Translations under genes and position numbers: made by a program
Sequence record: NC_054914.1
Strand: one strand, 5' to 3'
Source of the DNA: Escherichia phage vB_EcoM-fFiEco06
DNA length: 64,000 nucleotides
Notes under the pieces: generated by a model
Told to the model about the DNA's origin: nothing
Database searches by the model: none
Seen by the model: only the letters and a program-made list of their open reading frames with translations
Shown here: piece by piece, positions 23,084 through 54,900 of the stretch
Layout: every line of letters starts with the position of its first letter
Position numbering within the stretch: the first letter of the stretch is position 1

Positions 23084-23143
23084 TTTGTGTTCCTCATGTT
23101 ATGTCAGTAAGACTACTATAACACAACACGAGGGACTTGTAAA

Positions 23144-25201
23144 CTACATTTTGAACTTTTTAGACATTCCGTTGATGTTAACCAAAGAAGTCAAGATTTG
23201 AGAAACTTCATTTTCCTCTTCTTTTGATTCTTCTACAAGGAATTGATTAAATCCAGCCATTGGACGAACTTCACCAGTTTCCATTAGATGGTCTCCATCA
23301 TATACTGATTCTTCTAATTGTTCAGAAGGAGGAACGATTGTACCTTCGATTAGATACTTGTTATAAGCAGTTTCTTTCATAAAGTACGTACTTACTTTAT
23401 TAATCTTCAGTAAAATTCCACGTGGTAGAATAACTTCAGCTTCTGATGGAAATCCTGATAAATGACCTGGAACGATAACTTTGATTCGCTCAGCTCCTTT
23501 AATTACCATACCCACGCTAGTTTCTGCATCTTCATTAGCATATGTAGAATGACTACCCATATGCATCAAATCTTCTGCATCAACGGAACCTTCTCCTTCA
23601 CCAGAAAATACTGCGCCGGAATCATCTAGAGCCATATAGTTTTTACCATGCTCACCGAAGATATTTGGTTTAAGCGATGTGGATACGAAGTTCTTGAAAT
23701 AGAACATTTTATTTTCAATGTTATGACGCAAAGTTTTAAAGGTAACTTCTTGCCCACGGTAAAGTGTAGTTCCTGGAGGAAGAACTGATCCTTTGGCAAA
23801 GGCAGAATCTAACGTCTCGATGTGCTTAATAGCTCGTTCCATGTATTCTTCACGGGTAGAATCTGGTTTACCCAAAAGGAACGAGTTCATTTCAACATAT
23901 GAATCTGCACAATAATCTTCAATTACATCAGATTCAGCCTGAGTCAGTCCTTTTGGAGCTACTTCGGTGCTTGCGTATTCATATGCCTGGGCAGCAGATT
24001 CATTAATCAATTTATAAATGCCATTCATTACAAATTGAATAATAGCTGTCTTTTCATCTGGTGTGGTTTTAGAACCTTTAACTAAATCATTAATAATTTT
24101 CTTAATAACATCAAAGCTATTAGAAATATTAATGTCAGCAAGATCGCTTAAAATTTTATCAGTTTTATAATCAAAGAATTCTTTATTCTTTAAATATTCT
24201 TGAGAACCTTGATATGTTATATCGCTCTGCAACTTGATAGATGGATCACGTAAACGTGCATGGGCCAATGCAATATGATTTCGGAAGCTTTCTAGTTCAT
24301 AATCGCTAGATTTAAAACGAGAAGCACTTCTCATACCACCGATAGCTCCTTTGCTGAAGTTTGAACCAATCTGGATAACGCCAGAGTTCATTGGTCCTTC
24401 TGCTTTATATACCGGAACTTTAGATTCAAACTCTTGATATTTCTTGGCAGCGAAGCTATCACCCTGTAGCGAAGCATCGACAGTAGAATATTGAGCTTGT
24501 GCTGCTAATCGACGACTAATTTTAGTTTTCTGAATAACAGCTTGGTCCGTGCGCTTATCATTTTCTAAAGCAATAGAAGCAGCAACAGCGACAGCTTTAG
24601 GAACAGCATTTCCTGTTTTAACGTCTACATAAACATCACCGACCTTTGATTCAACTTTTGTGAATAACTCAGTTGAAATGGGAGGTACACCTGGAATGTC
24701 TTCTAAATTGGCATTTTTACGGTAAACCATAATATATGCGTACTTTTTATCGTAATCCCAGATTTCCTTTAAAAGAACATATCGACCTGCTCCTTTAGTA
24801 CGTACTAAACGGTCAGCAATAACTTGCATTTGACGAGCTGCGCCATTTGTTTTACTCTTTAGTACACGGAATAAGCACGCGTCAATTTTATACTGCTTCA
24901 TTGTTTGAAGAGCAGTATCAAAAACGGCATTAATGACACCAATTGGATTTCCACCCAAGTTTTTAAGCTTAACTAATGATAGTTTCTCATTAACACCTAT
25001 CATTACGATATGCATCATTTTATCGCCTGGCTTAACGTTTTTATTCGTATCACCACCAGAGGTGTATGTACAAAATCTAAATCCAGGAAGCACGCTTTCT
25101 TCGCCGGCTTGAATAGCAAAAATTTGTGGTATTTTATGCTTAGGATTTAAGTTAACAACCGGCGCCGAAGCGCCGTCAAATAATTCTGTAATAAGTTCCA
25201 T
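23144..25201 (-). CDS. Alt-like ADP-ribosyltransferase paralog (685 aa), R-S-E motifs intact
   Basis: N-terminus MELITELFD shared with the upstream copy; TLYRGQ, NFVSTSL, EAEVILPRG motifs seen. Confidence 0.75.
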   Translation of the reverse strand: MELITELFDGASAPVVNLNPKHKIPQIFAIQAGEESVLPGFRFCTYTSGGDTNKNVKPGDKMMHIVMIGVNEKLSLVKLKNLGGNPIGVINAVFDTALQTMKQYKIDACLFRVLKSKTNGAARQMQVIADRLVRTKGAGRYVLLKEIWDYDKKYAYIMVYRKNANLEDIPGVPPISTELFTKVESKVGDVYVDVKTGNAVPKAVAVAASIALENDKRTDQAVIQKTKISRRLAAQAQYSTVDASLQGDSFAAKKYQEFESKVPVYKAEGPMNSGVIQIGSNFSKGAIGGMRSASRFKSSDYELESFRNHIALAHARLRDPSIKLQSDITYQGSQEYLKNKEFFDYKTDKILSDLADINISNSFDVIKKIINDLVKGSKTTPDEKTAIIQFVMNGIYKLINESAAQAYEYASTEVAPKGLTQAESDVIEDYCADSYVEMNSFLLGKPDSTREEYMERAIKHIETLDSAFAKGSVLPPGTTLYRGQEVTFKTLRHNIENKMFYFKNFVSTSLKPNIFGEHGKNYMALDDSGAVFSGEGEGSVDAEDLMHMGSHSTYANEDAETSVGMVIKGAERIKVIVPGHLSGFPSEAEVILPRGILLKINKVSTYFMKETAYNKYLIEGTIVPPSEQLEESVYDGDHLMETGEVRPMAGFNQFLVEESKEEENEVSQILTSLVNINGMSKKFKM

Positions 25202-25204
25202 GAT

Positions 25205-27259
25205 TTATCCTTGAACGAACTTGTAAGGCATGTTTGCAATATCTATACAAGACGCAATAATTCCAAGAGATGATTCTACTTTCTGTTTAACGTTTGATGA
25301 AACAAATGATGTAAAGTCAACTCTGTCTTCTATTTCAATATCACCTGTCATTGCAACTACTTCGCCGGTTTCCATTAGACGGTCACCGTCATAAATTACC
25401 GATTCGGTGAGTTCTTCTGTGGTCATAACTTCAGCTTGAATAAGCTTGTTGTTAGTTTTAACTGTTCCATCATTGTAAGATGCATCGGTTATTTTATTAA
25501 CTTTGACCATTAATCCACGTGGCAAAATGACTTCCATTTCATTTGAAGGTGCTAAACTTCCACCTGGTAAAACAACATTGACTTTATCAGCCCCAGTAAT
25601 AACCCATCCAATTCCAACTAAATTATCGCTAGAATTTACTAGTCCTTCATCAGTTTTATCAATAGAAACACTTAAACGCTTTTCGTCTGGTAAAACACCC
25701 ACAGATGAATCAGTCATCCAGGTACCAAAAATATTTGGATATAATGATGTTGACACAAAATTTCTAAAATAAAAAACTCGATTTTTTACCAGTGCTTCAT
25801 ATATTGAAGGTAACATTCGTTGTGAACGATACAAAGTAATACCTTTTGGTAATCGTTCACCATTTTTAAAGGCAGAATCTAAATTATCAATAGCTTTTTC
25901 TATATCAGATGCTGTCAAAATACTTGTACGCTCATCTGGATTATATAATCCCAAAAGAGCGTTATTTATGTCTACATATCCTGAACTTACGTATTCACGA
26001 ATTCCGCGTTTTTGTGCCGGTGTGTATTTAGATGAATCTTTATTTTCGACTATAGGATGTAGTGACCATCCAGCGGTAAGAGCATATCCACGCAATTCTC
26101 TTCGAATAATCTTTGTTTTTATTGCATTCCAAGAATTTTGTACTAACTCATTCGCAGCATCTTGATTTAAATGCGAATGCTTGTTAATGTTTCTTTCTAA
26201 CCAAGCACCTTTATATTTTTCTAAAGTATCATCAACTATAGAAGCAATAGTTTCTAAAGTTTTTATTGAAGTAATAGATTCTTTTCGTAATCTTTCTAAA
26301 GCTTTATTTTTTATTTCTGCATTAACATCAGATTCTTTATCTTCAGGAATTATAGAAGCTTCTCTGAATGCCATTCCAGCTGTAACACTACTAAGAGCAT
26401 TCTCTAATGCAAATCCTGAAGTAGAAATAACAGTTAATTCATTAGCGTCAGAAATTAAAGGAGCGTCAGCAGGTTTATTTAATTCTGCTGCTGAAGCCTC
26501 AAATTTTTGAAACATCGGCGTTTCAAATCTAGAAGATTCCAATGATTGACTTTGCGCAATTGCTCTACGGGAAATTTTAACTTTAACGATTACAGCTTGG
26601 TCAGAACGTTTATCATTTTCTTGCGCAATAGATGCTGCAATTGCCTCATTTTTAGTTACTTGAGCTCCAGTATCTTTATTGATATAAACATCACCGACCT
26701 TCGATTCAACTTTAGTAAAGAGCTCAGTACTAATTTCCGGAACTCCCGGAATGTCTTCTAGTGATACATTTTTGCGATGTATAAGAATATATGCATACTT
26801 TTTATCGTAATCCCAGAGTTCCTTAAGAAGGACATATCTGCCACCTGAACGACTACGGATAAGTCTATCAGCAATAACTTGAATTTGTCGAGCTTGACCA
26901 GCGGTTTTAGACTTAAGAATACGAAGCATACAGGCATCAATTTTATACTGACGCATTGTTTGCATCGCAACAGTAAAAACTGAATTGATATAATTAATTG
27001 GGCTTGGACCAAGACCTTTTAATTTAGCAATTGAACCTTTAGCAGTTAATGTAAAAGGAACAATATGCATCATTTTATCGCCCATCTTTAAATCGCGATT
27101 AGTATCACCTCCAGATGTATAGGTACATAAACGAAAGCCTGGTTGTTCAATTGCATCATCAACATGAACTGAAAAAATTTGCGGTATTTTCTTCTTTGGA
27201 TTTAAGTTTGTAATCGGAAGAGTAGTATCTTCGTCAAATAATTCTGTAATAAGTTCCAT
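25205..27259 (-). CDS. alt: ADP-ribosyltransferase Alt (virion-packaged); start taken as second ATG (MELITELFDEDTT...)
   Basis: LYRSQ, FVSTSL, EMEVILPRG (R-S-E ART motifs); late promoter and RBS upstream; ~684 aa. Confidence 0.8.
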   Translation of the reverse strand: MELITELFDEDTTLPITNLNPKKKIPQIFSVHVDDAIEQPGFRLCTYTSGGDTNRDLKMGDKMMHIVPFTLTAKGSIAKLKGLGPSPINYINSVFTVAMQTMRQYKIDACMLRILKSKTAGQARQIQVIADRLIRSRSGGRYVLLKELWDYDKKYAYILIHRKNVSLEDIPGVPEISTELFTKVESKVGDVYINKDTGAQVTKNEAIAASIAQENDKRSDQAVIVKVKISRRAIAQSQSLESSRFETPMFQKFEASAAELNKPADAPLISDANELTVISTSGFALENALSSVTAGMAFREASIIPEDKESDVNAEIKNKALERLRKESITSIKTLETIASIVDDTLEKYKGAWLERNINKHSHLNQDAANELVQNSWNAIKTKIIRRELRGYALTAGWSLHPIVENKDSSKYTPAQKRGIREYVSSGYVDINNALLGLYNPDERTSILTASDIEKAIDNLDSAFKNGERLPKGITLYRSQRMLPSIYEALVKNRVFYFRNFVSTSLYPNIFGTWMTDSSVGVLPDEKRLSVSIDKTDEGLVNSSDNLVGIGWVITGADKVNVVLPGGSLAPSNEMEVILPRGLMVKVNKITDASYNDGTVKTNNKLIQAEVMTTEELTESVIYDGDRLMETGEVVAMTGDIEIEDRVDFTSFVSSNVKQKVESSLGIIASCIDIANMPYKFVQG

Positions 27260-30910: not shown

Positions 30911-31197
30911 TAGAACCTCATCTGAAAGCCATGCGATTTAACATTACCGCCGCCAATATCAGAAATATTAATTTCACGCGCAATTGAAGGGTCAATGTCA
31001 ATTTCACGATTGAGTTTAGTGATAGCTAAAGTATCGCGCCCATTTACTGTACGGAACTCTAGAGGACAAACCACATTAACGTAGTTTTTAATCGATTCAC
31101 TGGTAGGTTGCAAATGAGCAGGAAGATCTTTAGGCGCCTTAGAGAAAACTACTTCGCAGAAGTTTTTACGAGTATCAAAATAAGTAGTCATAAACAT
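30910..31197 (-). CDS. hypothetical early protein, 95 aa
   Basis: ORF with GAGG RBS after hairpin. Confidence 0.5.
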   Translation of the reverse strand: MFMTTYFDTRKNFCEVVFSKAPKDLPAHLQPTSESIKNYVNVVCPLEFRTVNGRDTLAITKLNREIDIDPSIAREINISDIGGGNVKSHGFQMRF

Positions 31198-31214
31198 AGT
31201 ATTTTCCTCAGTAA

Positions 31215-31228
31215 GGGGCCGAAGCCCC
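31215..31228 (-). terminator. GGGGC-UUCG-GCCCC hairpin between two early ORFs (stability/processing hairpin or terminator)
   Basis: Same hairpin sequence as the hoc terminator. Confidence 0.4.
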
Positions 31229-31238
31229 TCATTTTATT

Positions 31239-31616
31239 TTAAATATCAAATTCGTTAAGAACTACATCAAAGATTGCTTCAAGATGCTCAGGTTTAGCTC
31301 TGTTACTCAGAATATGACGAATCCAAGTTTTAACCAAAAGCTTGCGATTAGCGCCATTCCAGCAAGGATGAGTCCCTAAATCGCGTTGACGGAAATCATC
31401 ATCCAGAGCGATTTTAAAGTTGGAACCTTCCATTGTGATTGAAACCGTGATACCGTTTTCAAATCGCATATAAACGTAATTAGGAGTCATATACTGTTCA
31501 ATTTCGCATACTGAACCATTTTGATGTTTCCAAAGGCAGATGGTATCAATAGAACCTGTAATACCATTAGAAACATATTTACGTTCAAAGTTAATGTAGT
31601 TCATTTTATTCTCCAA
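31239..31616 (-). CDS. hypothetical early protein, 125 aa
   Basis: ORF preceded by early promoter cassette. Confidence 0.5.
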   Translation of the reverse strand: MENKMNYINFERKYVSNGITGSIDTICLWKHQNGSVCEIEQYMTPNYVYMRFENGITVSITMEGSNFKIALDDDFRQRDLGTHPCWNGANRKLLVKTWIRHILSNRAKPEHLEAIFDVVLNEFDI

Positions 31617-31629
31617 GATGTTTAATTGC

Positions 31630-31669
31630 GGTACAGGTATATAATATCATGTCCTGTACCAAAGTAAAC
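31630..31669 (-). promoter_or_regulatory. early promoter/stem-loop cassette (PeSL-like): -35 GTTTAC (31669-31664), 17-nt spacer, -10 TATTAT (31646-31641), inside inverted repeat GGTACAGG/CCTGTACC
   Basis: Sigma70-like hexamers with 17-nt spacing and 8-bp inverted repeat read directly. Confidence 0.55.
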
Positions 31670-31673
31670 TATT

Positions 31674-32042
31674 TTATGCAACTTTAATCCAATTATCTAA
31701 ATTTAATTCACCTTTGGCTTTCATTTTTTCAATCAAGAGGTCAGCGGTAATACGACCATTTTGATACCACGTAACATCTTCAGAGTAACCAGTTTCTTTA
31801 TCTTCATAAGTCTCACAGCGAATTTTACCAAGAATCAAAGTTTTTAATTCGTATGTATCTCCAGTAAAAAAGTTAGTTAACATTATTTTCCAAGAGAAAT
31901 CATCAGAAGGACCTTCAGGAGTCATACAATCTACAAATTCAAATTGTTCTTTATATAAATGCCACTGAAGTTCTTTAGTTTCGATAGCTTTATAGCCGTC
32001 GTGATCTTTACCTTTGATGTATGAGTTAAGATTGATTTTCAT
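31674..32042 (-). CDS. hypothetical early protein, 122 aa
   Basis: ORF in array. Confidence 0.5.
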   Translation of the reverse strand: MKINLNSYIKGKDHDGYKAIETKELQWHLYKEQFEFVDCMTPEGPSDDFSWKIMLTNFFTGDTYELKTLILGKIRCETYEDKETGYSEDVTWYQNGRITADLLIEKMKAKGELNLDNWIKVA

Positions 32043-32069
32043 TTTATTCTCCTTTGTTTGTGTAAGATA

Positions 32070-32099
32070 ATACTATCACAAAGGAACCATACTGTAAAC
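32070..32099 (-). promoter_or_regulatory. candidate early promoter: -35 GTTTAC (32099-32094), -10 TAGTAT, 18-nt spacer
   Basis: Hexamers read on minus strand; -10 is weak. Confidence 0.35.
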
Positions 32100-32128
32100 A
32101 ACTTTGTGCAATCTTTGGAAAATAAAAA

Positions 32129-32148
32129 AGGACTCCCGAAGGAGTCCT
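32129..32148 (-). terminator. AGGACUCC-UUCG-GGAGUCCU hairpin + U-tract downstream of the lysine-rich ORF
   Basis: 8-bp stem; minus strand reads hairpin then TTTTTATTTTCC. Confidence 0.7.
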
Positions 32149-32152
32149 CAAC

Positions 32153-32329
32153 TTATGCTTTCTGCTTACCAAAACGAGAAGCATCATCTCGAAGAACCGC
32201 ACGTGCTCGGCGCATGATCTTCTCAACAGTTTGATTGATACGAGAGTTCGACCCACGCTTGTAGCCAGCGCGTTTAGAATCACCAACTTTCTTTTCAACT
32301 GCTTTCTTTGCTTTAACTTGTTTTGCCAT
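32153..32329 (-). CDS. small lysine-rich basic protein, 58 aa (MAKQVKAKKAVEKK...; position of T4 30.9)
   Basis: Start chosen at ATG 32329; highly basic composition. Confidence 0.5.
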   Translation of the reverse strand: MAKQVKAKKAVEKKVGDSKRAGYKRGSNSRINQTVEKIMRRARAVLRDDASRFGKQKA

Positions 32330-32574
32330 TATAAATTCTCTTTTAAATGAAAATGCAGGACTTATTGACATTGCCTGCGCAAGCCCTCAAGGGGAACATA
32401 GGTTTTTGGATATTTAACGACCAGGATAACCATAAACCCGTCATCATTCACATTCAAGAGGTACACCGTAAAACTGCCGGGGTCTTAAAACTATAATGAT
32501 TCGCAAATCATTAATCAGACAGTTCGACGGCTCCTCGATTTTAGCTCACACTAAGGCAGTGAATCTCCAATAAA

Positions 32575-32823
32575 TTACTTCAATGTTACCACAAAGTGAC
32601 GAACTGCTTTTCGTGCAGCAGAAGCCAGAGGCTTAGCATATTTAAGTTCATCTTTTTCCTGAAGCTCAGCAGCTAATGCAGTTTGAGCAGGATTCAGATG
32701 TTTGAAATAACGCAGGATTTCAAGAGCTTCGGCTTCAACATCAATAGATGCGCCATAGTTTTCGTGACCATTATTCCATGCGTTTCGTTGCAGTTCAAGA
32801 GCGTGTTGTAATTGTTTAATCAT
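32575..32823 (-). CDS. rIII: lysis-inhibition accessory protein rIII (82 aa)
   Basis: Length and position match T4 rIII. Confidence 0.85.
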   Translation of the reverse strand: MIKQLQHALELQRNAWNNGHENYGASIDVEAEALEILRYFKHLNPAQTALAAELQEKDELKYAKPLASAARKAVRHFVVTLK

Positions 32824-32970
32824 TTAAAAATTCTCGTTAGAGATTAAAACTCGGTAGTCACGTTCTTCTGAATTTCATCTTCTTTCGACAGATCTCTCAG
32901 TTGTAGACTACCACATAGAATTGTTCGGTTAACTTATTATTCCGACACCCAATTCATATTATTATTTATA

Positions 32971-33306
32971 TCACTTATAAAGACACGGAATAGCTTTATA
33001 GTGACAAGTAACGAATTTTTGTTTAATTTCTTTTGGCTGCTTAAGACCCAGAGCTACAAAAGGATGCGGAACATTTCGAATTTGACCAACTGGAAGAGAA
33101 GTCAAATCACCAACTTCGCAGAAACCTTCAGGAACATCAGGACCAACAGAGTGAACTACACACAGTTCAGGAACTTCACCTTGGACACGTTTACCAATAA
33201 TAAGTCCTGATTCTGTAACTTCTTCATCACCGGCTTGTGCAGGTTCAGAAACTAAAATAACATATTCACCGACAGCACGAATTGGTAGCTGTTGTACTTC
33301 AGACAT
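32971..33306 (-). CDS. 31: co-chaperonin gp31 (GroES-like, 111 aa)
   Basis: Sequence recognisable as T4 gp31 ([21 protein letters not shown]...). Confidence 0.92.
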
Positions 33307-33362
33307 CGTTTTTCCTTTTTGTTAACAGATGAATTAATAATAACAAATAGTTCTTAAAGCAT

Positions 33363-33671
33363 TTATTTACCAATAAATTGAAGCAAATGCTCAACTTTCA
33401 TACCATTAACGGAAATCAATTTGTCAATAGAAAAACCTCGCCACGCACCAAGCTCAACATCAAATACTGGAATCATGTCAGTAGATTCTTTCCGAGTAGA
33501 TTCAGTCAATTTGCCAGTTTGCATGGTTGGCATAAAGTCCGCGTCGCGAGTACCTTTCATAACACGAATAGTACCGTCAGACTTTTCAAAAACTACGTTT
33601 GAAACACCCATGGACAATTTAGTTTTCAAAATTTCACGAATTGCTACTTTTTGTTCAGTCGTCAGTTTCAT
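33363..33671 (-). CDS. hypothetical protein, 102 aa (position of T4 31.1)
   Basis: ORF in array. Confidence 0.5.
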   Translation of the reverse strand: MKLTTEQKVAIREILKTKLSMGVSNVVFEKSDGTIRVMKGTRDADFMPTMQTGKLTESTRKESTDMIPVFDVELGAWRGFSIDKLISVNGMKVEHLLQFIGK

Positions 33672-33908
33672 TTATTTACCTATTACAGTTTTAATATGAG
33701 TTGTTCCACGTTCTTTAAGAGTGGAAAGTAATTTTTGGCATTTTTCTAAATCAGATTTCCAACTATATGGTCTATCAATACAAACCCATTCTGACTTATA
33801 ATACTGCTTCCATTTAGAGAAAAAATATTTCTTATACTCTACAGCAAATGAAATATTCTCATTAGAATAAGAACTAATTGCTGTGAGCTGTACCAAACGA
33901 AATTTCAT
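33672..33908 (-). CDS. hypothetical protein, 78 aa (position of T4 31.2)
   Basis: ORF in array. Confidence 0.5.
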   Translation of the reverse strand: MKFRLVQLTAISSYSNENISFAVEYKKYFFSKWKQYYKSEWVCIDRPYSWKSDLEKCQKLLSTLKERGTTHIKTVIGK

Positions 33909-34489
33909 TATTCACCACAGAATTCGTTGATATTTTCCCAGTTTAACTTATTCAAGTTTTTCTTAGGAACATTAAACACTTCAATACCTGCATTTCGCAG
34001 AATATCATCCCAGCCAGGTTTATTTTTATCGTATGTTTCACAATAAACCAGCTTTTTAATTCCAGATTGAGCTATTGCTTTTGCACAATCTGGGCAAGGA
34101 GAAAGTGTTACATACATAGTAGCACCTTCAATTGAAGAACCGTTTCGTGCAGCAAACAAAATCGCATTTAGTTCAGCATGAATTTCATTTTTAGACGACC
34201 ATTCAGAGTGCGCGCTACGATGTTCTTTCGCCAATACAAAACGATCAGTTGAACCAAACGATACACATTCAGGCTTATGACCTTGAATGATAGTATGTTT
34301 AGGTTTATTCAGCAACCAACCTTGCTCAGCAGCATAATCACAACAGTTCACACCACCTGCAGGTGAACCATTATATCCAGTAGAAATAATACGTCCATTC
34401 TTTTCAATTACTGCTCCTACTTTCCAGGAGCAACATTTTGATTCTTGTGATACTAAATATGCAATTTGAAGTACTGTACTCGCTTTCAT
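33908..34489 (-). CDS. cd: dCMP deaminase (193 aa)
   Basis: Zinc-binding deaminase motifs HAELNAI and PCPDCAKAI; length matches T4 Cd. Confidence 0.92.
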   Translation of the reverse strand: MKASTVLQIAYLVSQESKCCSWKVGAVIEKNGRIISTGYNGSPAGGVNCCDYAAEQGWLLNKPKHTIIQGHKPECVSFGSTDRFVLAKEHRSAHSEWSSKNEIHAELNAILFAARNGSSIEGATMYVTLSPCPDCAKAIAQSGIKKLVYCETYDKNKPGWDDILRNAGIEVFNVPKKNLNKLNWENINEFCGE

Positions 34490-34824
34490 TTCATAATCAC
34501 CAGATAAGCAGATTTAGCAGTTTCAACACGATAAATTTCGTGACGAAGTTTAGTTATACTTTTAATAACAGAACTAATTATATTCTGCCCATCTTTAAAG
34601 CGGTTTTTCTTATCAATAAAAATTGCGCCAACCATCTTTTTGTGAAGCTCAACCGGATACTTCGTCACAATAATAGCATCATACACAGAAGGATGAATAC
34701 TATTCACCAAAGTATCATTCATTAAAGTTATTCTAATGAACTTTGCTGTTTCAGAGTCAAGCGCTCTATGATCGCCAGTATCATTTTCAAGACAATTATC
34801 AATTATATCAGTTAAATTCATCAT
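34486..34824 (-). CDS. hypothetical protein, 112 aa (cd.1 position)
   Basis: ATGA-coupled ORF. Confidence 0.5.
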   Translation of the reverse strand: MMNLTDIIDNCLENDTGDHRALDSETAKFIRITLMNDTLVNSIHPSVYDAIIVTKYPVELHKKMVGAIFIDKKNRFKDGQNIISSVIKSITKLRHEIYRVETAKSAYLVIMK

Positions 34825-35057
34825 AGTACGCCATACACCCTTTGTGCTTCAACTAATCCATCAAAATCCAATTTGAGATGTGTTATTTGGTCACCATCAC
34901 CTGGATTCACAATTACTAATACTGAACGAGGAGTTTCGGTAATAACACGAACCGATGTTTCGGGAAATCGTTCAGAAACCTTATTTACTAATTCCTGCGC
35001 AAATAGTTTAACTTTTTCTTGGAATTCTTTAACAGTAATTGGTTTTTCACTTAGCAT
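34821..35057 (-). CDS. hypothetical protein, 78 aa (cd.2 position)
   Basis: ATGA-coupled ORF. Confidence 0.5.
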   Translation of the reverse strand: MLSEKPITVKEFQEKVKLFAQELVNKVSERFPETSVRVITETPRSVLVIVNPGDGDQITHLKLDFDGLVEAQRVYGVL

Positions 35058-35578
35058 GTTGATCCCAGCTCCTTACTTTCAACGTTTTTAACTAATTTGA
35101 CAGAAACTAATTCAGCATCTTGGGTAATCATTACCGGGCCTTCTTCATGCTCTTCAAGATATTCTAGAGCTTTCTTTTTAGCTTCTTCCTTCGTATCAGT
35201 TTGAGCATAGATATAGAACATACAACCAGTAATACCTACTACTTTCCACTTAATTTCTTTATCAGTTTTAATTTCAAATTTACTTACAGAATCATCTTTT
35301 TGAACTTCTTCGAAAAAAGAATATTCTAACATATAAGCAATTGAAAATAACGGGCTAACTTTATAGGATTCACCCATTACATCAACAGCTTTATACCAAC
35401 AATCATCAATTTCGCGTTTAATGCTAATAACATTTTTCGCAGGATCTATTTTTACTTTAAATGAATTTTCCCCAATAAACTGGGCAATTCGTTTATTAGC
35501 CCCGCAAGTTTCATTAAAAATATCTTTATACCCAGTTTTAAAGCGATAAACCTTATCTTCTTCAAACCATTCGCTCAT
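35051..35578 (-). CDS. hypothetical protein, 175 aa (cd.3 position)
   Basis: ORF preceded by promoter cassette. Confidence 0.5.
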   Translation of the reverse strand: MSEWFEEDKVYRFKTGYKDIFNETCGANKRIAQFIGENSFKVKIDPAKNVISIKREIDDCWYKAVDVMGESYKVSPLFSIAYMLEYSFFEEVQKDDSVSKFEIKTDKEIKWKVVGITGCMFYIYAQTDTKEEAKKKALEYLEEHEEGPVMITQDAELVSVKLVKNVESKELGSTC

Positions 35579-35599
35579 TTCAATTTCCTCGTTTGTTTT

Positions 35600-35638
35600 G
35601 GTAGAGCTATAATATCACAACTCTACCGTAAAGTAAAC
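35600..35638 (-). promoter_or_regulatory. early promoter/stem-loop cassette: -35 GTTTAC (35638-35633), 18-nt spacer, -10 TATTAT (35614-35609), inverted repeat GGTAGAG/CTCTACC
   Basis: Same architecture as the 31630-31669 element. Confidence 0.5.
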
Positions 35639-35639
35639 T

Positions 35640-35945
35640 TTAAATTGCTTTGAATTCTGATGTCTGTGATTTAAAGCGAATATCGCCTTTGATGACTAGC
35701 TCAGCATCAAGACCGAATACGACAATGATATGCGCGGAACCTGGATACAACGTGATGGCAACAGAATCCACCTGGTCTGGAAGCAAAGTGTTCAATACAT
35801 GAGTCACTTGAGCATGGATTCGAAGCTCAGCTGCGTTATCAAGTTTTTCAAACATATTATTAGCGATAATTTGGCTAAACACTACTTCTACGATTTTAGA
35901 GTAAGTCGGAAACATATTTACCTCACATAATTTTCTTCGAGCCAA
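35640..35945 (-). CDS. hypothetical protein, 101 aa (cd.4 position)
   Basis: ORF in array. Confidence 0.5.
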   Translation of the reverse strand: MARRKLCEVNMFPTYSKIVEVVFSQIIANNMFEKLDNAAELRIHAQVTHVLNTLLPDQVDSVAITLYPGSAHIIVVFGLDAELVIKGDIRFKSQTSEFKAI

Positions 35946-36110
35946 TCAATAACATCCAAAGCGTTATCAAAAGTTGCGCCATCTACTTTGTCTTCTGTTT
36001 CATAATCAAGAACATCTAGGCCTACTCTTCCGTCAACAATAGGCCATAGACAAAATAGATATTTCTTTTCTTTTTCAATTTTATCACAAAGACGATAAAT
36101 CTTTTCTAGG

Positions 36111-36118
<8 letters not shown>
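35918..36118 (-). CDS. hypothetical protein, 66 aa (cd.5 position)
   Basis: ORF in array. Confidence 0.45.
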
Positions 36119-37526
<1,408 letters not shown>

Positions 37527-37530
<4 letters not shown>

Positions 37531-38900: not shown

Positions 38901-38961
38901 AAAGTCCTCATGTTATGTCAGTAAGACTACTATAACACAACACGAGGGACTTGTAAACAGC

Positions 38962-51981: not shown

Positions 51982-54900
51982 ATGGCCGAGATTAAAAGAA
52001 AGTTCAGAGCAGAAGATGGTCTGGACGCAGGTGGCGATAAAATAATCAACGTAGCTTTAGCTGATCGTACCGTAGGAACTGACGGTGTTAACGTTGATTA
52101 CTTAATTCAAGAAAACACAGTTCAGCAATATGACCCAACTCGTGGATATTTAAAAGATTTTGTAATCATTTATAATAATCGTTTTTGGGCAGCAACGGAT
52201 AATATTCCAAAACCTGCTGGAAATTTTAATAGAATTCGTTGGAAAGCATTACGTACTGATGCCGTATATACAACCGTATCATCTGGACCATATCAATTAA
52301 AATCCGGAGAAGCAATTTCAGTAGATACATCAGTTGGCAATGACATTGAGTTTACTTTACCACCTTCTCCGCTTGATGGAGAAACCGTAATAATTCAAGA
52401 TATCGGTGGAAAACCTGGCATAAATCAGGTTAAAATAAATTCTTCAAATCAGAGTATTGTCAATTTTAGAGGTGAACAGGTACGTTCAGTTTTAATGACT
52501 CATCCAAAGTCACAGATGGTATTCATTTTTAATAATCGTTTGTGGCAAATGTATATTGCTGATTATAGCAGAGAAGCTGCGATTGTTACTCCATCGACTG
52601 CATATCAAGCACAATCTAATGATTTTATCGTACGTAGATTTACTTCTGCTGCACCAATTAATGTTAAACTTCCGAGATTTGCTAATCATGGCGATATTAT
52701 TAATTTCGTTGATTTAGATAAACTGAATCCACTTTATCATACAATTGTTACTACATACGATGAAACGACTTCAGTACAAGAAGTTGGAACTCATTCCATT
52801 GAAGGCCGTACATCGATTGACGGTTTCTTGATGTTTGACGATAATGAGAAATTGTGGAGATTGTTTGACGGGGATAGTAAAGCACGTTTACGCATTATAA
52901 CAACTAATTCAAATATTCGTCCAAATGAAGAAGTCATGGTATTTGGCGCGAATAATGGAACAACCCAAACAATTGAACTTCAGCTTCCGACTGATATTTC
53001 TGTTGGTGATACTGTTAAAATTTCCATGAATTACATGAGAAAAGGACAAACAGTTAAAATCAAAGCTGCTGGTGAAGATAAAATTGCTTCTTCAGTTCAA
53101 TTGCTGCAATTCCCAAAACGTTCAGAATATCCGCCTGAAGCTGAATGGGTAACAGTTCAAGAATTAGTTTTTAACGGTGAAACTAATTATGTACCAGTTT
53201 TGCAACTTGCTTATATAGAAGATTCTGATGGAAAATACTGGGTTGTACAGCAAAACGTTCCAACAGTTGAAAGAGTCGATTCTTTAAATAATTCTACTAG
53301 AGCAAGATTAGGCGTAATTGCTTTAGCTACACAAGCTCAAGCAAATGCTGATTTAGAAAATTCTCCGCAAAAAGAATTGGCAATTACTCCAGAAACGTTA
53401 GCTAATCGTACTGCTACAGAAACTCGCAGAGGTATTGCAAGAATAGCAACTACTGCTCAAGTGAATCAGAACACCACATTCTCTTTTGCAGATGACCTTA
53501 TCATCACTCCTAAAAAGCTGAATGAAAGAACTGCTACAGAAACTCGCAGAGGTGTCGCTGAAATTGCTACGCAGCAGGAAACTAATACAGGTACTGATGA
53601 TACTACAATCATTACTCCTAAAAAGCTTCAAGCTCGCCAAGGTTCTGAATCATTATCTGGTATTGTAACTTTTGTATCTACCGCAGGAGCTACTCCAGCT
53701 TCTAGTCGTGAATTAAATGGTACGAATGTTTATAATAAAAACACTAATAATTTAGTTGTTTCACCTAAAGCTTTGGATCAGTATAAAGCTACTCCAACGC
53801 AACAAGGCGCAGTAATTTTAGCAGTTGAAAGTGAAGTAATTGCTGGACAAAGCCAAGAAGGATGGGCAAATGCGGTTGTAACGCCAGAAACGTTACATAA
53901 AAAGACATCAACTGATGGAAGAATTGGTTTAATTGAAATTGCTACGCAAAGTGAAGTTAATACAGGAACTGACTATACTCGTGCAGTCACTCCTAAAACT
54001 TTAAATGACCGTAGAGCAACTGAAAGTTTAAGTGGTATAGCTGAAATTGCTACGCAAGTTGAATTCGACGCAGGCGTCGACGATACTCGTATCTCTACAC
54101 CATTAAAAATTAAAACCAGATTTAATAGTACTGATCGTACTTCTGTTGTTGCTCTATCTGGATTAGTTGAATCAGGAACTCTCTGGGACCATTATACCCT
54201 TAATATTCTTGAAGCAAATGAGACACAGCGTGGTACACTTCGTGTAGCTACACAAGTTGAAGCTGCTGCAGGAACATTGGATAATGTTCTAATAACTCCT
54301 AAAAAGCTTTTAGGTACTAAATCTACTGAAGCGCAGGAAGGCGTTATTAAAGTTGCAACTCGGTCTGAAACTGTAGCTGGAACGTCAGCAAATACTGCTG
54401 TATCTCCAAAAAATTTAAAATGGATTGTGCAGAGTGAACCTACTTGGGCAGCGACTACTGCGATAAGAGGTTTTGTTAAAACTTCGTCTGGTTCAATTAC
54501 ATTCGTTGGTAATGATACAGCTGGTTCAACACAGCCATTAGAATCATATGAGAAAAATGGTTATGCAGTATCACCATATGAATTAAATCGCGTATTAGCA
54601 AATTATTTGCCGTTAAAAGCAAAAGCCGTAGATAGTAATTTATTAGATGGTCTAGATTCGCTCCAGTTCATTCGTAGGGACATTGCACAAACAGTTAATG
54701 GTTCACTAACCTTAACCCAACAAACGAATCTGAGTGCCCCTCTTGTATCATCTAGTACTGCTACATTCGGTGGATCAGTTTCAGCAAATAGTACATTAAC
54801 TATTTCTAATACTGGAACGGCAACTCGTCTGATTTTTGAGAAAGGACCTCAAACTGGAACAAACCCGGCTCAAACGATGACAGTCAGAGTGTGGGGAAAT

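What the first reader, a model, noticed from the sequence alone, without database searches (positions are those of the whole stretch)
31630..31669. Early promoter embedded in an inverted repeat (PeSL-like cassette), repeated at 35600-35638
A sigma70-like promoter (GTTTAC, 17-18 nt, TATTAT) lies inside an 8-bp inverted repeat (GGTACAGG...CCTGTACC); a second copy with the same architecture (GGTAGAG...CTCTACC) precedes the cd.3-position ORF. Promoter-early stem-loop cassettes have been proposed to mediate modular shuffling of early genes in T4-type phages, and these junctions flank ORFs that vary between relatives.
Basis: partly seen in the sequence, partly recalled or inferred. Interest (0 to 1): 0.4.

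Follow-up and report, generated by a model that had tools for sequence, protein, structure and literature searches.

The report
T4 early promoters built inside hairpins
Two strong early promoters of a T4-like coliphage each sit inside a short inverted repeat, a known kind of promoter/stem-loop cassette that is identical in phage T4 itself and marks the edges of genes that are swapped or inserted between related phages.

Summary
On the minus strand, GTTTAC-17-TATTAT (31641-31669) and GTTTAC-18-TATTAT (35609-35638) each have the -10 box in the loop of an 8-bp or 7-bp inverted repeat.

The window is Escherichia phage vB_EcoM-fHoEco02, a Tequatrovirus. T4 carries the same cassettes at the same junctions. 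The second is T4's catalogued early promoter Pe133295, whose start falls inside the 3' arm.

This is not chance. Of 39 early-promoter sites in the genome, 7 have a perfect repeat of at least 7 bp around the -10, against about 0.6 expected. Hairpins occur almost only where the -35 abuts the upstream stop codon (17/21 versus 2/18). Stems hold 37 G.U pairs on the sense strand against 4 on the antisense. Distant genera keep a hairpin at the 30.7 promoter with unrelated arms.

The hairpin is therefore selected, probably as RNA, and can form only in read-through transcripts. It lacks a U-tract and does not cover the ribosome-binding site at site 1.

Both junctions border variable genes: the 30.8 allele is replaced, and a 175-aa ORF found in about a third of relatives is inserted.

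This fits the published PeSL concept, so it is a known kind and of modest interest.

The parts
31664..31669 (-). Site 1, -35 hexamer GTTTAC
31653..31660 (-). Site 1, 5' arm GGTACAGG, inside the promoter spacer and upstream of +1
31641..31646 (-). Site 1, -10 hexamer TATTAT in the hairpin loop, preceded by TGn
31630..31637 (-). Site 1, 3' arm CCTGTACC. The predicted +1 (7th nt after the -10) is at 31634, inside this arm.
   Evidence: the +1 geometry is inferred from the T4 Pe133295 naming
31239..31604 (-). Gene 30.7 (Pfam Phage_T4_Gp30_7), the gene served by site 1. Its SD GGAG lies at 31611-31614.
31674..32042 (-). Gene 30.8 (Pfam Phage_30_8). Its stop codon lies 4 nt before the -35. The allele has no blastn similarity to T4's over 31686-32024.
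32070..32149 (-). Other flank of the 30.8 cassette: canonical intrinsic terminator (32128-32149) followed by early promoter GTTTAC-18-TAGTAT (32070-32099)
35633..35638 (-). Site 2, -35 hexamer GTTTAC
35621..35627 (-). Site 2, 5' arm GGTAGAG. As RNA the stem extends inward by 5 more pairs, some of them G.U.
35609..35614 (-). Site 2, -10 hexamer TATTAT, in the loop and inner stem
35600..35606 (-). Site 2, 3' arm CTCTACC. The +1 is at 35602, the base corresponding to T4 coordinate 133295.
35051..35578 (-). HE2_222, a 175-aa ORF of unknown function (phrog_3710, no Pfam hit). Relative to T4 it is inserted exactly between the site-2 leader and the cd.2 start.
35640..35915 (-). Gene cd.3 (DUF7355), the upstream gene. 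Its stop codon abuts the site-2 -35.

Best explanation
Both sites are sigma70-dependent T4-type early promoters. They are orthologues of the T4 promoters in front of 30.7 and of Pe133295 in front of cd.2.

Each promoter is built inside a hairpin. The 5' arm lies in the -35/-10 spacer, the -10 lies in the loop, and the 3' arm spans about -4 to +5. Because transcription from the promoter starts inside the 3' arm, its own mRNA lacks the 5' arm and has an unstructured leader. Only RNA that reads through from the upstream gene can form the hairpin.

The hairpin is therefore a structure specific to read-through transcripts. It is used where the upstream ORF ends right at the -35, leaving no room for a separate terminator.

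Its most likely role is to insulate neighbouring early transcription units. It could do so by pausing or attenuating read-through, or by acting as a 3'-exonuclease barrier for the upstream message. It is not a classical intrinsic terminator.

As a by-product, the conserved promoter/hairpin block is an island of identity between otherwise diverged or unrelated ORFs. Surviving recombination junctions fall at this block, which is the PeSL picture.

Status of each step:
- Shown: the motifs, their excess over chance, the conservation, the association with abutting stop codons, the strand bias, and the homology breakpoints.
- Inferred: the position of the transcript start, the existence of the RNA hairpin in vivo, and its role.
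For: Identity and orthology:
- The window is phage vB_EcoM-fHoEco02.
- T4 has the same cassettes at the same junctions.
- The T4 record names 'early promoter Pe133295 between cd.2 and cd.3'. Coordinate 133295 is the 7th nt after the -10, inside the 3' arm.

Excess over chance:
- 7 of 39 promoters have a perfect inverted repeat of at least 7 bp around the -10, against 0.63 expected.
- 12 of 39 have at least 6 bp, against 2.4 expected. No shuffle out of 1000 reached either count.
- 21 of 39 fold with z < -2.

Context:
- A hairpin is present at 17 of 21 promoters whose -35 lies within 12 nt of the upstream stop.
- It is present at 2 of 18 others (Fisher p = 1.7e-5).
- Promoters preceded by a canonical terminator lack it.

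RNA level:
- The sense fold is more stable than the antisense fold in 25 promoters and less stable in 10 (Wilcoxon p = 6e-4; versus shuffles p = 0.002).
- Strong hairpins hold 37 G.U pairs in sense folds and 4 in antisense folds.
- Variants L007 and Mosigvirus JK36 carry one-sided changes that keep G.U.

Selection on structure rather than sequence:
- The 30.7 promoters of Marfavirus Potts1, Klebsiella phage Roth80, Kanagawavirus IME523 and Mosugukvirus PM2 have hairpins with unrelated arms around the -10.
- These fold at -17.6 to -21.8 kcal/mol, z -3.5 to -5.9.

Leaders:
- The promoters' own leaders are unstructured (-0.3 and -2.6 kcal/mol).
- The read-through RNAs are structured (z -2.3 and -4.1).

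Junctions:
- Homology breaks fall at 31674/31685 and at 32025/32114 in T4 and in 9 of 14 relatives.
- All four combinations of 30.8 allele and leader type exist.
- HE2_222 is inserted right after the site-2 leader and is present in 301 records.
Against: - No transcript data exist for this phage. The start inside the 3' arm is taken from the name of the T4 promoter, not from data I could read.
- No U-tract follows either hairpin, and the terminator scan does not list them, so termination would have to be non-canonical.
- Site 1 folds slightly better as antisense RNA (-15.0 versus -12.3 kcal/mol). The strand bias is therefore a property of the class and is not shown for site 1 alone.
- Two diverged orthologues (Moonvirus KM16, Karamvirus CC31) and Gaprivervirus SP18 at site 2 have no hairpin.
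- In the first 50 kb of PM2 only 2 of 8 strict promoter sites have a strong hairpin, so the rule is not established outside Tequatrovirus.
- G.T pairs are also tolerated in single-stranded DNA, so a role for same-sense ssDNA is not excluded.
Confidence: 0.6

Rival explanations
1. The selected function is at the DNA level. The promoter plus inverted repeat is a PeSL recombination linker, possibly a hairpin or cruciform target for phage recombination nucleases. It mediates excision and insertion of ORF cassettes, and the RNA hairpin is incidental.
For: - Homology breakpoints recur at the edge of site 1 (31674/31685) in T4 and in 9 of 14 relatives.
- All four combinations of upstream allele and downstream leader exist across the 17-nt invariant GTTTACTTTGGTACAGG.
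- HE2_222 is inserted next to site 2.
- Distant homologues of HE2_222 sit at the other junction (30.8/30.7) in IME523 and KM16.
- Mini-circles between PeSLs were shown experimentally in RB49/phi1 (PMC2839356).
Against: - The sense-strand G.U bias (37 versus 4) and the restriction to promoters abutting a stop codon are not predicted by a DNA recombination site.
- Arms differ between promoters, so they offer little homology to each other. Sites 1 and 2 match at 10 of 32 non-hexamer positions.
- The distal end of the HE2_222 insertion, and the whole HE2_227 insertion, lie at gene starts without any promoter or repeat.
- Intergenic breakpoints would be enriched by purifying selection alone.
- Loops of 14-15 nt make cruciform extrusion unlikely (inference).
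Confidence: 0.2
2. The hairpin gates translation, as at T4 genes e, soc, 49 and I-TevI. In read-through RNA it hides the ribosome-binding site of the downstream gene, so only transcripts started at the embedded promoter are translated.
For: [quoted passage not shown]
- At other early promoters of this genome the 3' arm does cover the SD, for example at record positions 164524, 51379, 61084, 7640 and 63696, and at window 32070-32099.
- The predicted unpaired fraction of the initiation region falls from 0.65 in own transcripts to 0.44 in read-through across the 39 promoters.
- At site 2 it falls from 0.74 to 0.42. The MFE fold pairs the SD-AUG spacer with the end of cd.3.
Against: - At both sites the stem ends 12-20 nt before the SD.
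- At site 1 accessibility is unchanged (0.67 versus 0.64).
- The class-wide drop has no length-matched control, and longer RNAs pair more anyway.
Confidence: 0.12
3. The inverted repeat is an operator for a dimeric DNA-binding protein centred on the -10, for example a factor that shuts off early promoters.
For: - The mechanism of early-promoter shut-off is stated to be unknown (PMC2988021).
- The symmetry is centred on the -10.
Against: - Arm sequences differ between promoters and between orthologues. Examples are GGTACAGG, GGTAGAG, AGTTGACAAGATT, GCTGATTGAGT and TTTGTAGGAGAC.
- Arm spacing relative to the -10 varies.
- G.U-type mismatches are tolerated on one strand only.
- Only about half of early promoters have any hairpin.
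Confidence: 0.04
4. The repeat is a chance palindrome or a by-product of the early-promoter consensus.
For: - Site 2 alone has a shuffle p of only 0.035.
- Part of the pairing at some promoters comes from shared class motifs such as GGGTA...TACCC. The re-pairing null of 1.0 is higher than the shuffle null of 0.63.
Against: - 7 observed against 0.6-1.0 expected, and 0 of 1000 shuffles reach the observed count.
- The arms are invariant while the loop and flanks vary among relatives.
- Unrelated arms are retained in other genera.
Confidence: 0.03

Closest known systems
PeSLs (promoter-early stem-loops) of RB49/phi1, and of PST/T4 and nt-1/KVP40 (Arbiol et al. 2010, PMC2839356; Comeau et al. 2014, PMC4122927)
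   Same: [quoted passage not shown]
- Upstream stop codon in an A/T-rich stretch, with the SD and start codon at the 3' end.
- A stem-loop overlapping the -10 is one of the commonest layouts in phi1.
- Located next to ORFs that differ between close relatives.
- G-T pairs are noted in the stems.
   Different: - RB49/phi1 promoters are TTGACA-type with polyG/polyC stems. Here the -35 is GTTTAC and the arms are mixed-sequence and unique to each promoter.
- The PST/T4 PeSLs in the 2014 figure legend have the stem-loop just upstream of the promoter. In these two sites it encloses the -10.
- Terminator activity and mini-circles were shown only for a few phi1/RB49 elements, not for these.
Promoter/stem-loop elements of the T-even internal-protein (IP) loci (Repoila et al. 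1994, as described in PMC2839356)
   Same: - Based on T4-type early promoters, with weaker, more A/T-rich stem-loops of variable size.
- They flank shuffled small genes.
- In this genome the ip5/ip6-region promoters (record 70594-71252) have the same -10-in-loop layout, with 7-11-bp arms.
   Different: They lie at a different locus, outside the window. The sites studied here are in the 30.x and cd regions.
Promoter-embedded inhibitory hairpins of T4 genes e, soc, 49 and I-TevI (reviewed in PMC3014915)
   Same: The promoter lies in the DNA that encodes the 5' strand of an RNA helix. Upstream-initiated transcripts therefore fold, and locally initiated ones do not.
   Different: - Those are late promoters, and their helices sequester the SD/AUG.
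- Here the promoters are early, and the stems stop short of the SD.
Rho-independent (intrinsic) terminators
   Same: A stable hairpin placed a few nucleotides after a stop codon.
   Different: - No U-tract, and loops of 14-15 nt by Watson-Crick pairing alone (at site 2 G.U pairs close the RNA fold to a 4-nt loop).
- Not detected by the terminator scan, which does find the canonical terminator at 32128-32149.

Membership tests
T4-type early promoter | -35 GTTTAC, a 17-18 nt spacer, and a -10 TAnnnT | tested here: met
   Both sites match exactly: GTTTAC, a 17 or 18 nt spacer, TATTAT.
T4-type early promoter | Extended -10 (TGn) and an A/T-rich UP region (PMC2988021) | tested here: met
   The scan reports TG before the second hexamer at both sites. 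The upstream 12 nt are TTGCATAAAATA and AAGCAATTTAAA.
T4-type early promoter | Orthology to a catalogued T4 early promoter | tested here: met
   Site 2 corresponds to T4 Pe133295, named in AF158101. For site 1 the identical cassette is in T4 before 30.7, but I could not read a promoter list to confirm it is catalogued.
T4-type early promoter | Transcript 5' end about 7 nt downstream of the -10, immediately after infection | not testable with these tools
   A T4 dRNA-seq data set exists (GSE255091, bioRxiv 10.1101/2024.04.04.588121). Its TSS table is not in the held supplement.
PeSL | Early promoter and stem-loop combined in one intergenic element, with the stem-loop in one of five positions including overlapping the -10 | tested here: met
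   Definition. The hairpins have the -10 in the loop.
PeSL | Preferential location next to ORFs that differ between close relatives | tested here: met
   The 30.8 allele is replaced and HE2_222 is present or absent. Extra ORFs lie between 30.8 and 30.7 in other genera.
PeSL | The stem-loop acts as a terminator or attenuator of upstream transcription | not testable with these tools
   Shown by lacZ assay for one phi1 element only. Here there is no U-tract. Support is indirect: the hairpins are complementary in distribution to canonical terminators.
PeSL | Recombination between cassettes (mini-circles, chimeric PeSLs) | tested here: inconclusive
   The four-combination pattern and recurrent breakpoints at the cassette edge fit. 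However, promoter-less indel junctions also occur, and the arms are not shared between cassettes.
PeSL, PST/T4 subtype of Comeau 2014 | Stem-loop just upstream of the promoter, often AGNA-loop-TCNT | tested here: not met
   At both sites the stem-loop encloses the -10. The neighbouring element at 32070-32149 does have the upstream layout.
Intrinsic terminator | G+C-rich hairpin with a short loop followed by a U-tract | tested here: not met
   The tails are GCAAUUAA and AAAACAAA. Neither site is listed by the terminator scan.
Promoter-embedded TIR-sequestering hairpin (e, soc, 49, I-TevI type) | SD and/or AUG lie inside the helix formed by upstream-initiated RNA | tested here: not met
   The 3' arms end 12-20 nt before the SD. 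Initiation-region accessibility at site 1 is 0.67 versus 0.64. Site 2 shows a partial drop, 0.74 to 0.42.
Known RNA family (Rfam) | Match to a curated covariance model | tested here: not met
   The only hit in 31000-36500 is a sub-threshold Atu_C8 match over the terminator at 32114-32197.

The most novel reading that the evidence does not exclude
In T4-type phages the stem-loops of PeSL-like cassettes may be selected mainly as RNA rather than as recombination sites.

The proposed rule is this. Whenever an early promoter directly abuts the preceding ORF, it is built inside a hairpin, with the 5' arm in the spacer, the -10 in the loop, and the 3' arm across +1 or across the SD. Read-through and locally initiated mRNAs of the same gene then differ in structure, and so in fate (attenuation, stability or translation).

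This would extend the late-promoter paradigm of e, soc, 49 and I-TevI to about half of all early promoters. It would recast PeSL-associated shuffling as a side effect.
Probability: 0.35. Interest if true: 0.5.

Novelty: new member of a known kind. Interest (0 to 1): 0.3.

Why it matters
For genome annotation, these are ordinary, strong T4 early promoters that should be annotated in front of 30.7 and HE2_222. They also explain the mosaic boundaries of 30.8 and HE2_222.

The wider point is modest but testable. The stem-loop half of PeSL-type cassettes appears to be under selection as a read-through-specific RNA structure at compact gene junctions. That would affect how early operons of T4-like phages are insulated from each other. 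It would also matter for engineering: inserting or deleting genes at these junctions will change both a promoter and a hairpin.

Tried and rejected
- **Invertible-promoter idea.** The T4 record notes that the 14-nt loop of Pe133295 was earlier reported in inverted orientation. I built inverted-loop versions of both cassettes and searched them against the phage collection. No record among 621 and 659 hits exceeded 95% identity, so no natural loop-inversion variant exists.
- **The two sites as sequence repeats of each other.** Rejected: 10 of 32 non-hexamer matches, rank 591 of 741. They are not reported by the repeat finder either.
- **Classical column-wise covariation.** Not applicable. Orthologous hairpins in other genera have different registers and unrelated arms, so I used per-sequence folding z-scores instead.
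- **Mutant T4 clone OL964735 with a truncated cd.3.** The 100-nt deletion is internal to cd.3 and the cassette is intact, so it is uninformative.
- **Rfam.** Nothing relevant.
- **Replication of the class-wide statistics in a distant genome (PM2, first 50 kb).** Only 8 strict promoter sites, which is too few.
- **Published T4 TSS table.** Not in the held supplement. Miller et al. 2003 and the 2014 paper's supplements and figures are not held. I therefore could not check whether these two promoters were listed as PeSLs.
- **Function of the cargo ORFs.** No Pfam hit, and only PHROG families of unknown function.

Full report
**What is there**

The window matches Escherichia phage vB_EcoM-fHoEco02 (MG781191.1, genus Tequatrovirus) at 100% identity over the region. 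All genes around the finding are on the minus strand.

Read on that strand, site 1 is AGTTTAC-TTTGGTACAGGACATGA-TATTAT-ATACCTGTACCGCAATTAAACATCTTGGAGAATAAAATG. Site 2 is AGTTTAC-TTTACGGTAGAGTTGTGA-TATTAT-AGCTCTACCAAAACAAACGAGGAAATTGAAATG.

Both sites also have an extended -10 TGn and an A/T-rich upstream stretch.

Site 1 lies between the stop of 30.8 (4 nt before the -35) and 30.7. Site 2 lies between the stop of cd.3 (abutting the -35) and HE2_222. HE2_222 is a 175-aa ORF that sits between cd.3 and cd.2, not at the cd.3 position.

**Already present in T4**

T4 (AF158101) has the same cassette at both junctions. The site-2 cassette is identical and site 1 differs by one loop base.

The T4 record carries a note at 133300-133313: 'inverted complement of previously reported sequence; corrects the early promoter Pe133295 between cd.2 and cd.3'. 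Those 14 bases are exactly the hairpin loop.

Coordinate 133295 is the A seven bases after the -10, inside the 3' arm CTCT-A-CC. Site 2 is therefore the orthologue of a catalogued T4 early promoter. By the annotators' naming, its transcript starts within the 3' arm. By the same geometry, site 1 starts at window 31634.

**More than chance**

For single sites, shuffling the spacer and the downstream 16 nt reaches the observed arm length in 0.5% (site 1) and 3.5% (site 2) of trials.

I retrieved the whole genome and found 39 GTTTAC-N17/18-TAnnnT sites on the early strand. The counts of perfect inverted repeats enclosing the -10 are:

| Repeat length | Observed | Expected from shuffles |
|---|---|---|
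| At least 7 bp | 7 | 0.63 |
| At least 6 bp | 12 | 2.4 |

None of 1000 shuffles reached either count. Other nulls for the 7-bp threshold gave 1.0 (re-pairing spacers with other promoters' downstream regions), 0-1 (same geometry shifted by 40-100 nt) and about 0.7 (random genome positions).

With RNA folding, 21 of 39 promoters have z < -2. The two sites fold at -12.3 kcal/mol (z -2.8) and -17.2 kcal/mol (z -5.4) as sense RNA.

The two sites are not copies of one another. Outside the hexamers they match at 10 of 32 positions, below the average promoter pair.

**What kind of selection**

Three results point to a structure that acts in sense-strand RNA reading through from upstream.

First, context. 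A hairpin with at least six pairs enclosing the -10 and z < -2 is present at 17 of 21 promoters whose -35 lies within 12 nt of the upstream stop codon. It is present at only 2 of 18 others (Fisher p = 1.7e-5). Promoters preceded by a canonical terminator lack it; window 32128-32149 before the 30.8 promoter is one such terminator.

Second, strand. Sense folds are more stable than antisense folds in 25 promoters and less stable in 10 (Wilcoxon p = 6e-4; against composition-matched shuffles p = 0.002). The 19 strong hairpins contain 37 G.U pairs in the sense fold against 4 in the antisense fold.

Third, phylogeny. Within Tequatrovirus, Mosigvirus and related contigs the site-1 arms are invariant while the loop, leader and upstream gene vary. 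One variant changes C to U and keeps a G.U pair. In four distant phages the promoter in front of 30.7 has a hairpin around its -10 with entirely different arms. These fold at -17.6 to -21.8 kcal/mol, z -3.5 to -5.9. Two other genera have none. Site 2 keeps its hairpin in Mosigvirus through G.U and compensatory-type changes and lacks it in Gaprivervirus.

Different arms at every promoter argue against a sequence-specific protein operator.

**What the hairpin probably does**

The 5' arm is upstream of +1, so only read-through RNA can form it. The promoters' own leaders are essentially unstructured (-0.3 and -2.6 kcal/mol). The read-through RNAs fold around the promoter (z -2.3 and -4.1).

Neither hairpin is followed by a U-tract, and the terminator scan does not pick them up. 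They are therefore not classical intrinsic terminators.

At several other early promoters of this genome the 3' arm covers the Shine-Dalgarno sequence. That resembles the known e/soc/49/I-TevI arrangement (PMC3014915). At the two sites studied here the stems end 12-20 nt before the SD. Predicted accessibility of the initiation region is unchanged at site 1 (0.67 versus 0.64) and only partly reduced at site 2 (0.74 versus 0.42).

My best reading is an insulator at zero-spacer junctions. It would pause or attenuate read-through, or block 3' exonucleases to protect the upstream message. This agrees with the terminator/attenuator role proposed, and tested once, for PeSL stem-loops in phi1 (PMC2839356). 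This step is inference.

**Variable neighbours**

Against T4, homology runs up to window 31685, which is 16 nt upstream of the site-1 -35. It vanishes across the body of 30.8 and resumes at 32025 near the 30.8 start. The replaced gene is still a Phage_30_8 family member, so this is an allelic swap.

The same breakpoints (31674/31685 and 32025/32114) recur in 9 of 14 related contigs. All four combinations of 30.8 allele and downstream leader type occur. Exchanges have therefore happened within or next to the 17-nt invariant block GTTTACTTTGGTACAGG.

HE2_222 (35057-35575) is a clean insertion relative to T4, lying between the site-2 leader and the cd.2 start. It is found in 301 phage records out of roughly 960 that carry the region.

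Distant genera carry one or two extra ORFs of 160-175 aa between 30.8 and 30.7. Some of these are weak homologues of HE2_222.

This fits the PeSL shuffling picture (PMC2839356, PMC4122927). It does not prove that the cassette mediates the events. The distal end of the HE2_222 insertion, and the whole HE2_227 insertion (37211-37523), lie at gene starts with no promoter. Arms are not shared between cassettes.

**Comparison with what is known, and verdict**

The elements meet the sequence definitions of a T4 early promoter and of a PeSL of the subclass whose stem-loop overlaps the -10. They do not match the 'stem-loop just upstream' layout given for PST/T4 PeSLs in the 2014 figure legend, nor an intrinsic terminator, nor a TIR-sequestering hairpin.

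The promoter at site 2 is already catalogued in T4, and the concept is published. The finding is therefore a correct recognition of a known kind of element.

The class-wide association with abutting stop codons and the sense-strand G.U bias are, as far as the papers I could read show, not stated explicitly. They are worth a modest follow-up.

Interest is 0.3.

Noticed in passing
window 23091-23144 and 38905-38958: A perfect 54-nt direct repeat, 15.8 kb apart. Each copy is an early promoter plus leader (GTTTAC-18-TATAGT ... ATGAGGA) on the minus strand, upstream of the alt.-3-like ORF and of alc. Other identical promoter pairs exist elsewhere in the genome: record positions 143917/52821, 51379/25662 and 161332/53301.
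   Followed up: partly
window 32070-32149 (minus strand): A canonical intrinsic terminator (GAGGACTCCTTCGGGAGTCCTT + TTTTATTTT) is directly followed by the early promoter of 30.8. This is the 'stem-loop upstream of promoter' layout. The promoter's own spacer also pairs with the 30.8 SD region in read-through RNA.
   Followed up: partly
window 37210-37530: HE2_227 (106 aa, phrog_2364, unknown function) is an ORF-precise insertion relative to T4 between pseT and pseT.1. It has no promoter or inverted repeat at either end, so it serves as a control showing that indels here do not need a cassette.
   Followed up: partly
window 35051-35578; L039 1840-2382; L025 142-618; L021 642-1130: HE2_222 is weakly homologous to the ORF at the same position in Shigella phage SP18 (42% over 46 aa). 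It is also weakly homologous to extra ORFs at the 30.8/30.7 junction in Enterobacter phage IME523 (26% over 166 aa, E 1e-7) and Salmonella phage KM16. One small protein family therefore sits behind early promoters at both junctions in different phages.
   Followed up: partly
T4 AF158101 133300-133313 (L002 9301-9314): A GenBank note says this 14-nt stretch, exactly the hairpin loop of Pe133295, was previously reported as its inverted complement. No phage record carries an inverted-loop version of either cassette (best identity 92.9-94.2%). This was most likely an old sequencing or cloning artefact at a hairpin, not a natural invertible promoter.
   Followed up: yes
window 31611-31614 (minus strand): The SD of 30.7 is GGAG, the motif cleaved by the T4 RegB endoribonuclease in early mRNAs. 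Cleavage there would leave the site-1 hairpin about 15 nt from the new 3' end of the upstream fragment.
   Followed up: no
record MG781191.1 70594-71252 (outside the window; ip5/ip6 region): Three consecutive early promoters have 7-, 10- and 11-bp perfect arms around the -10. These are the strongest cluster of the motif and correspond to the internal-protein loci where PeSL-like elements were first noted in T-even phages.
   Followed up: partly
window 25005-25162 / 27060-27217, and 53383-54053: There are diverged direct repeats. One is a 158-nt pair (72% identity) in the two adjacent alt-family genes. The other is a 68-nt unit present three times within the long tail fibre gene 34.
   Followed up: no
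L042 (mutant T4 clone T4_3t3, OL964735.1): This laboratory T4 mutant has a 100-nt deletion inside cd.3. The Pe133295 cassette downstream is intact.
   Followed up: yes
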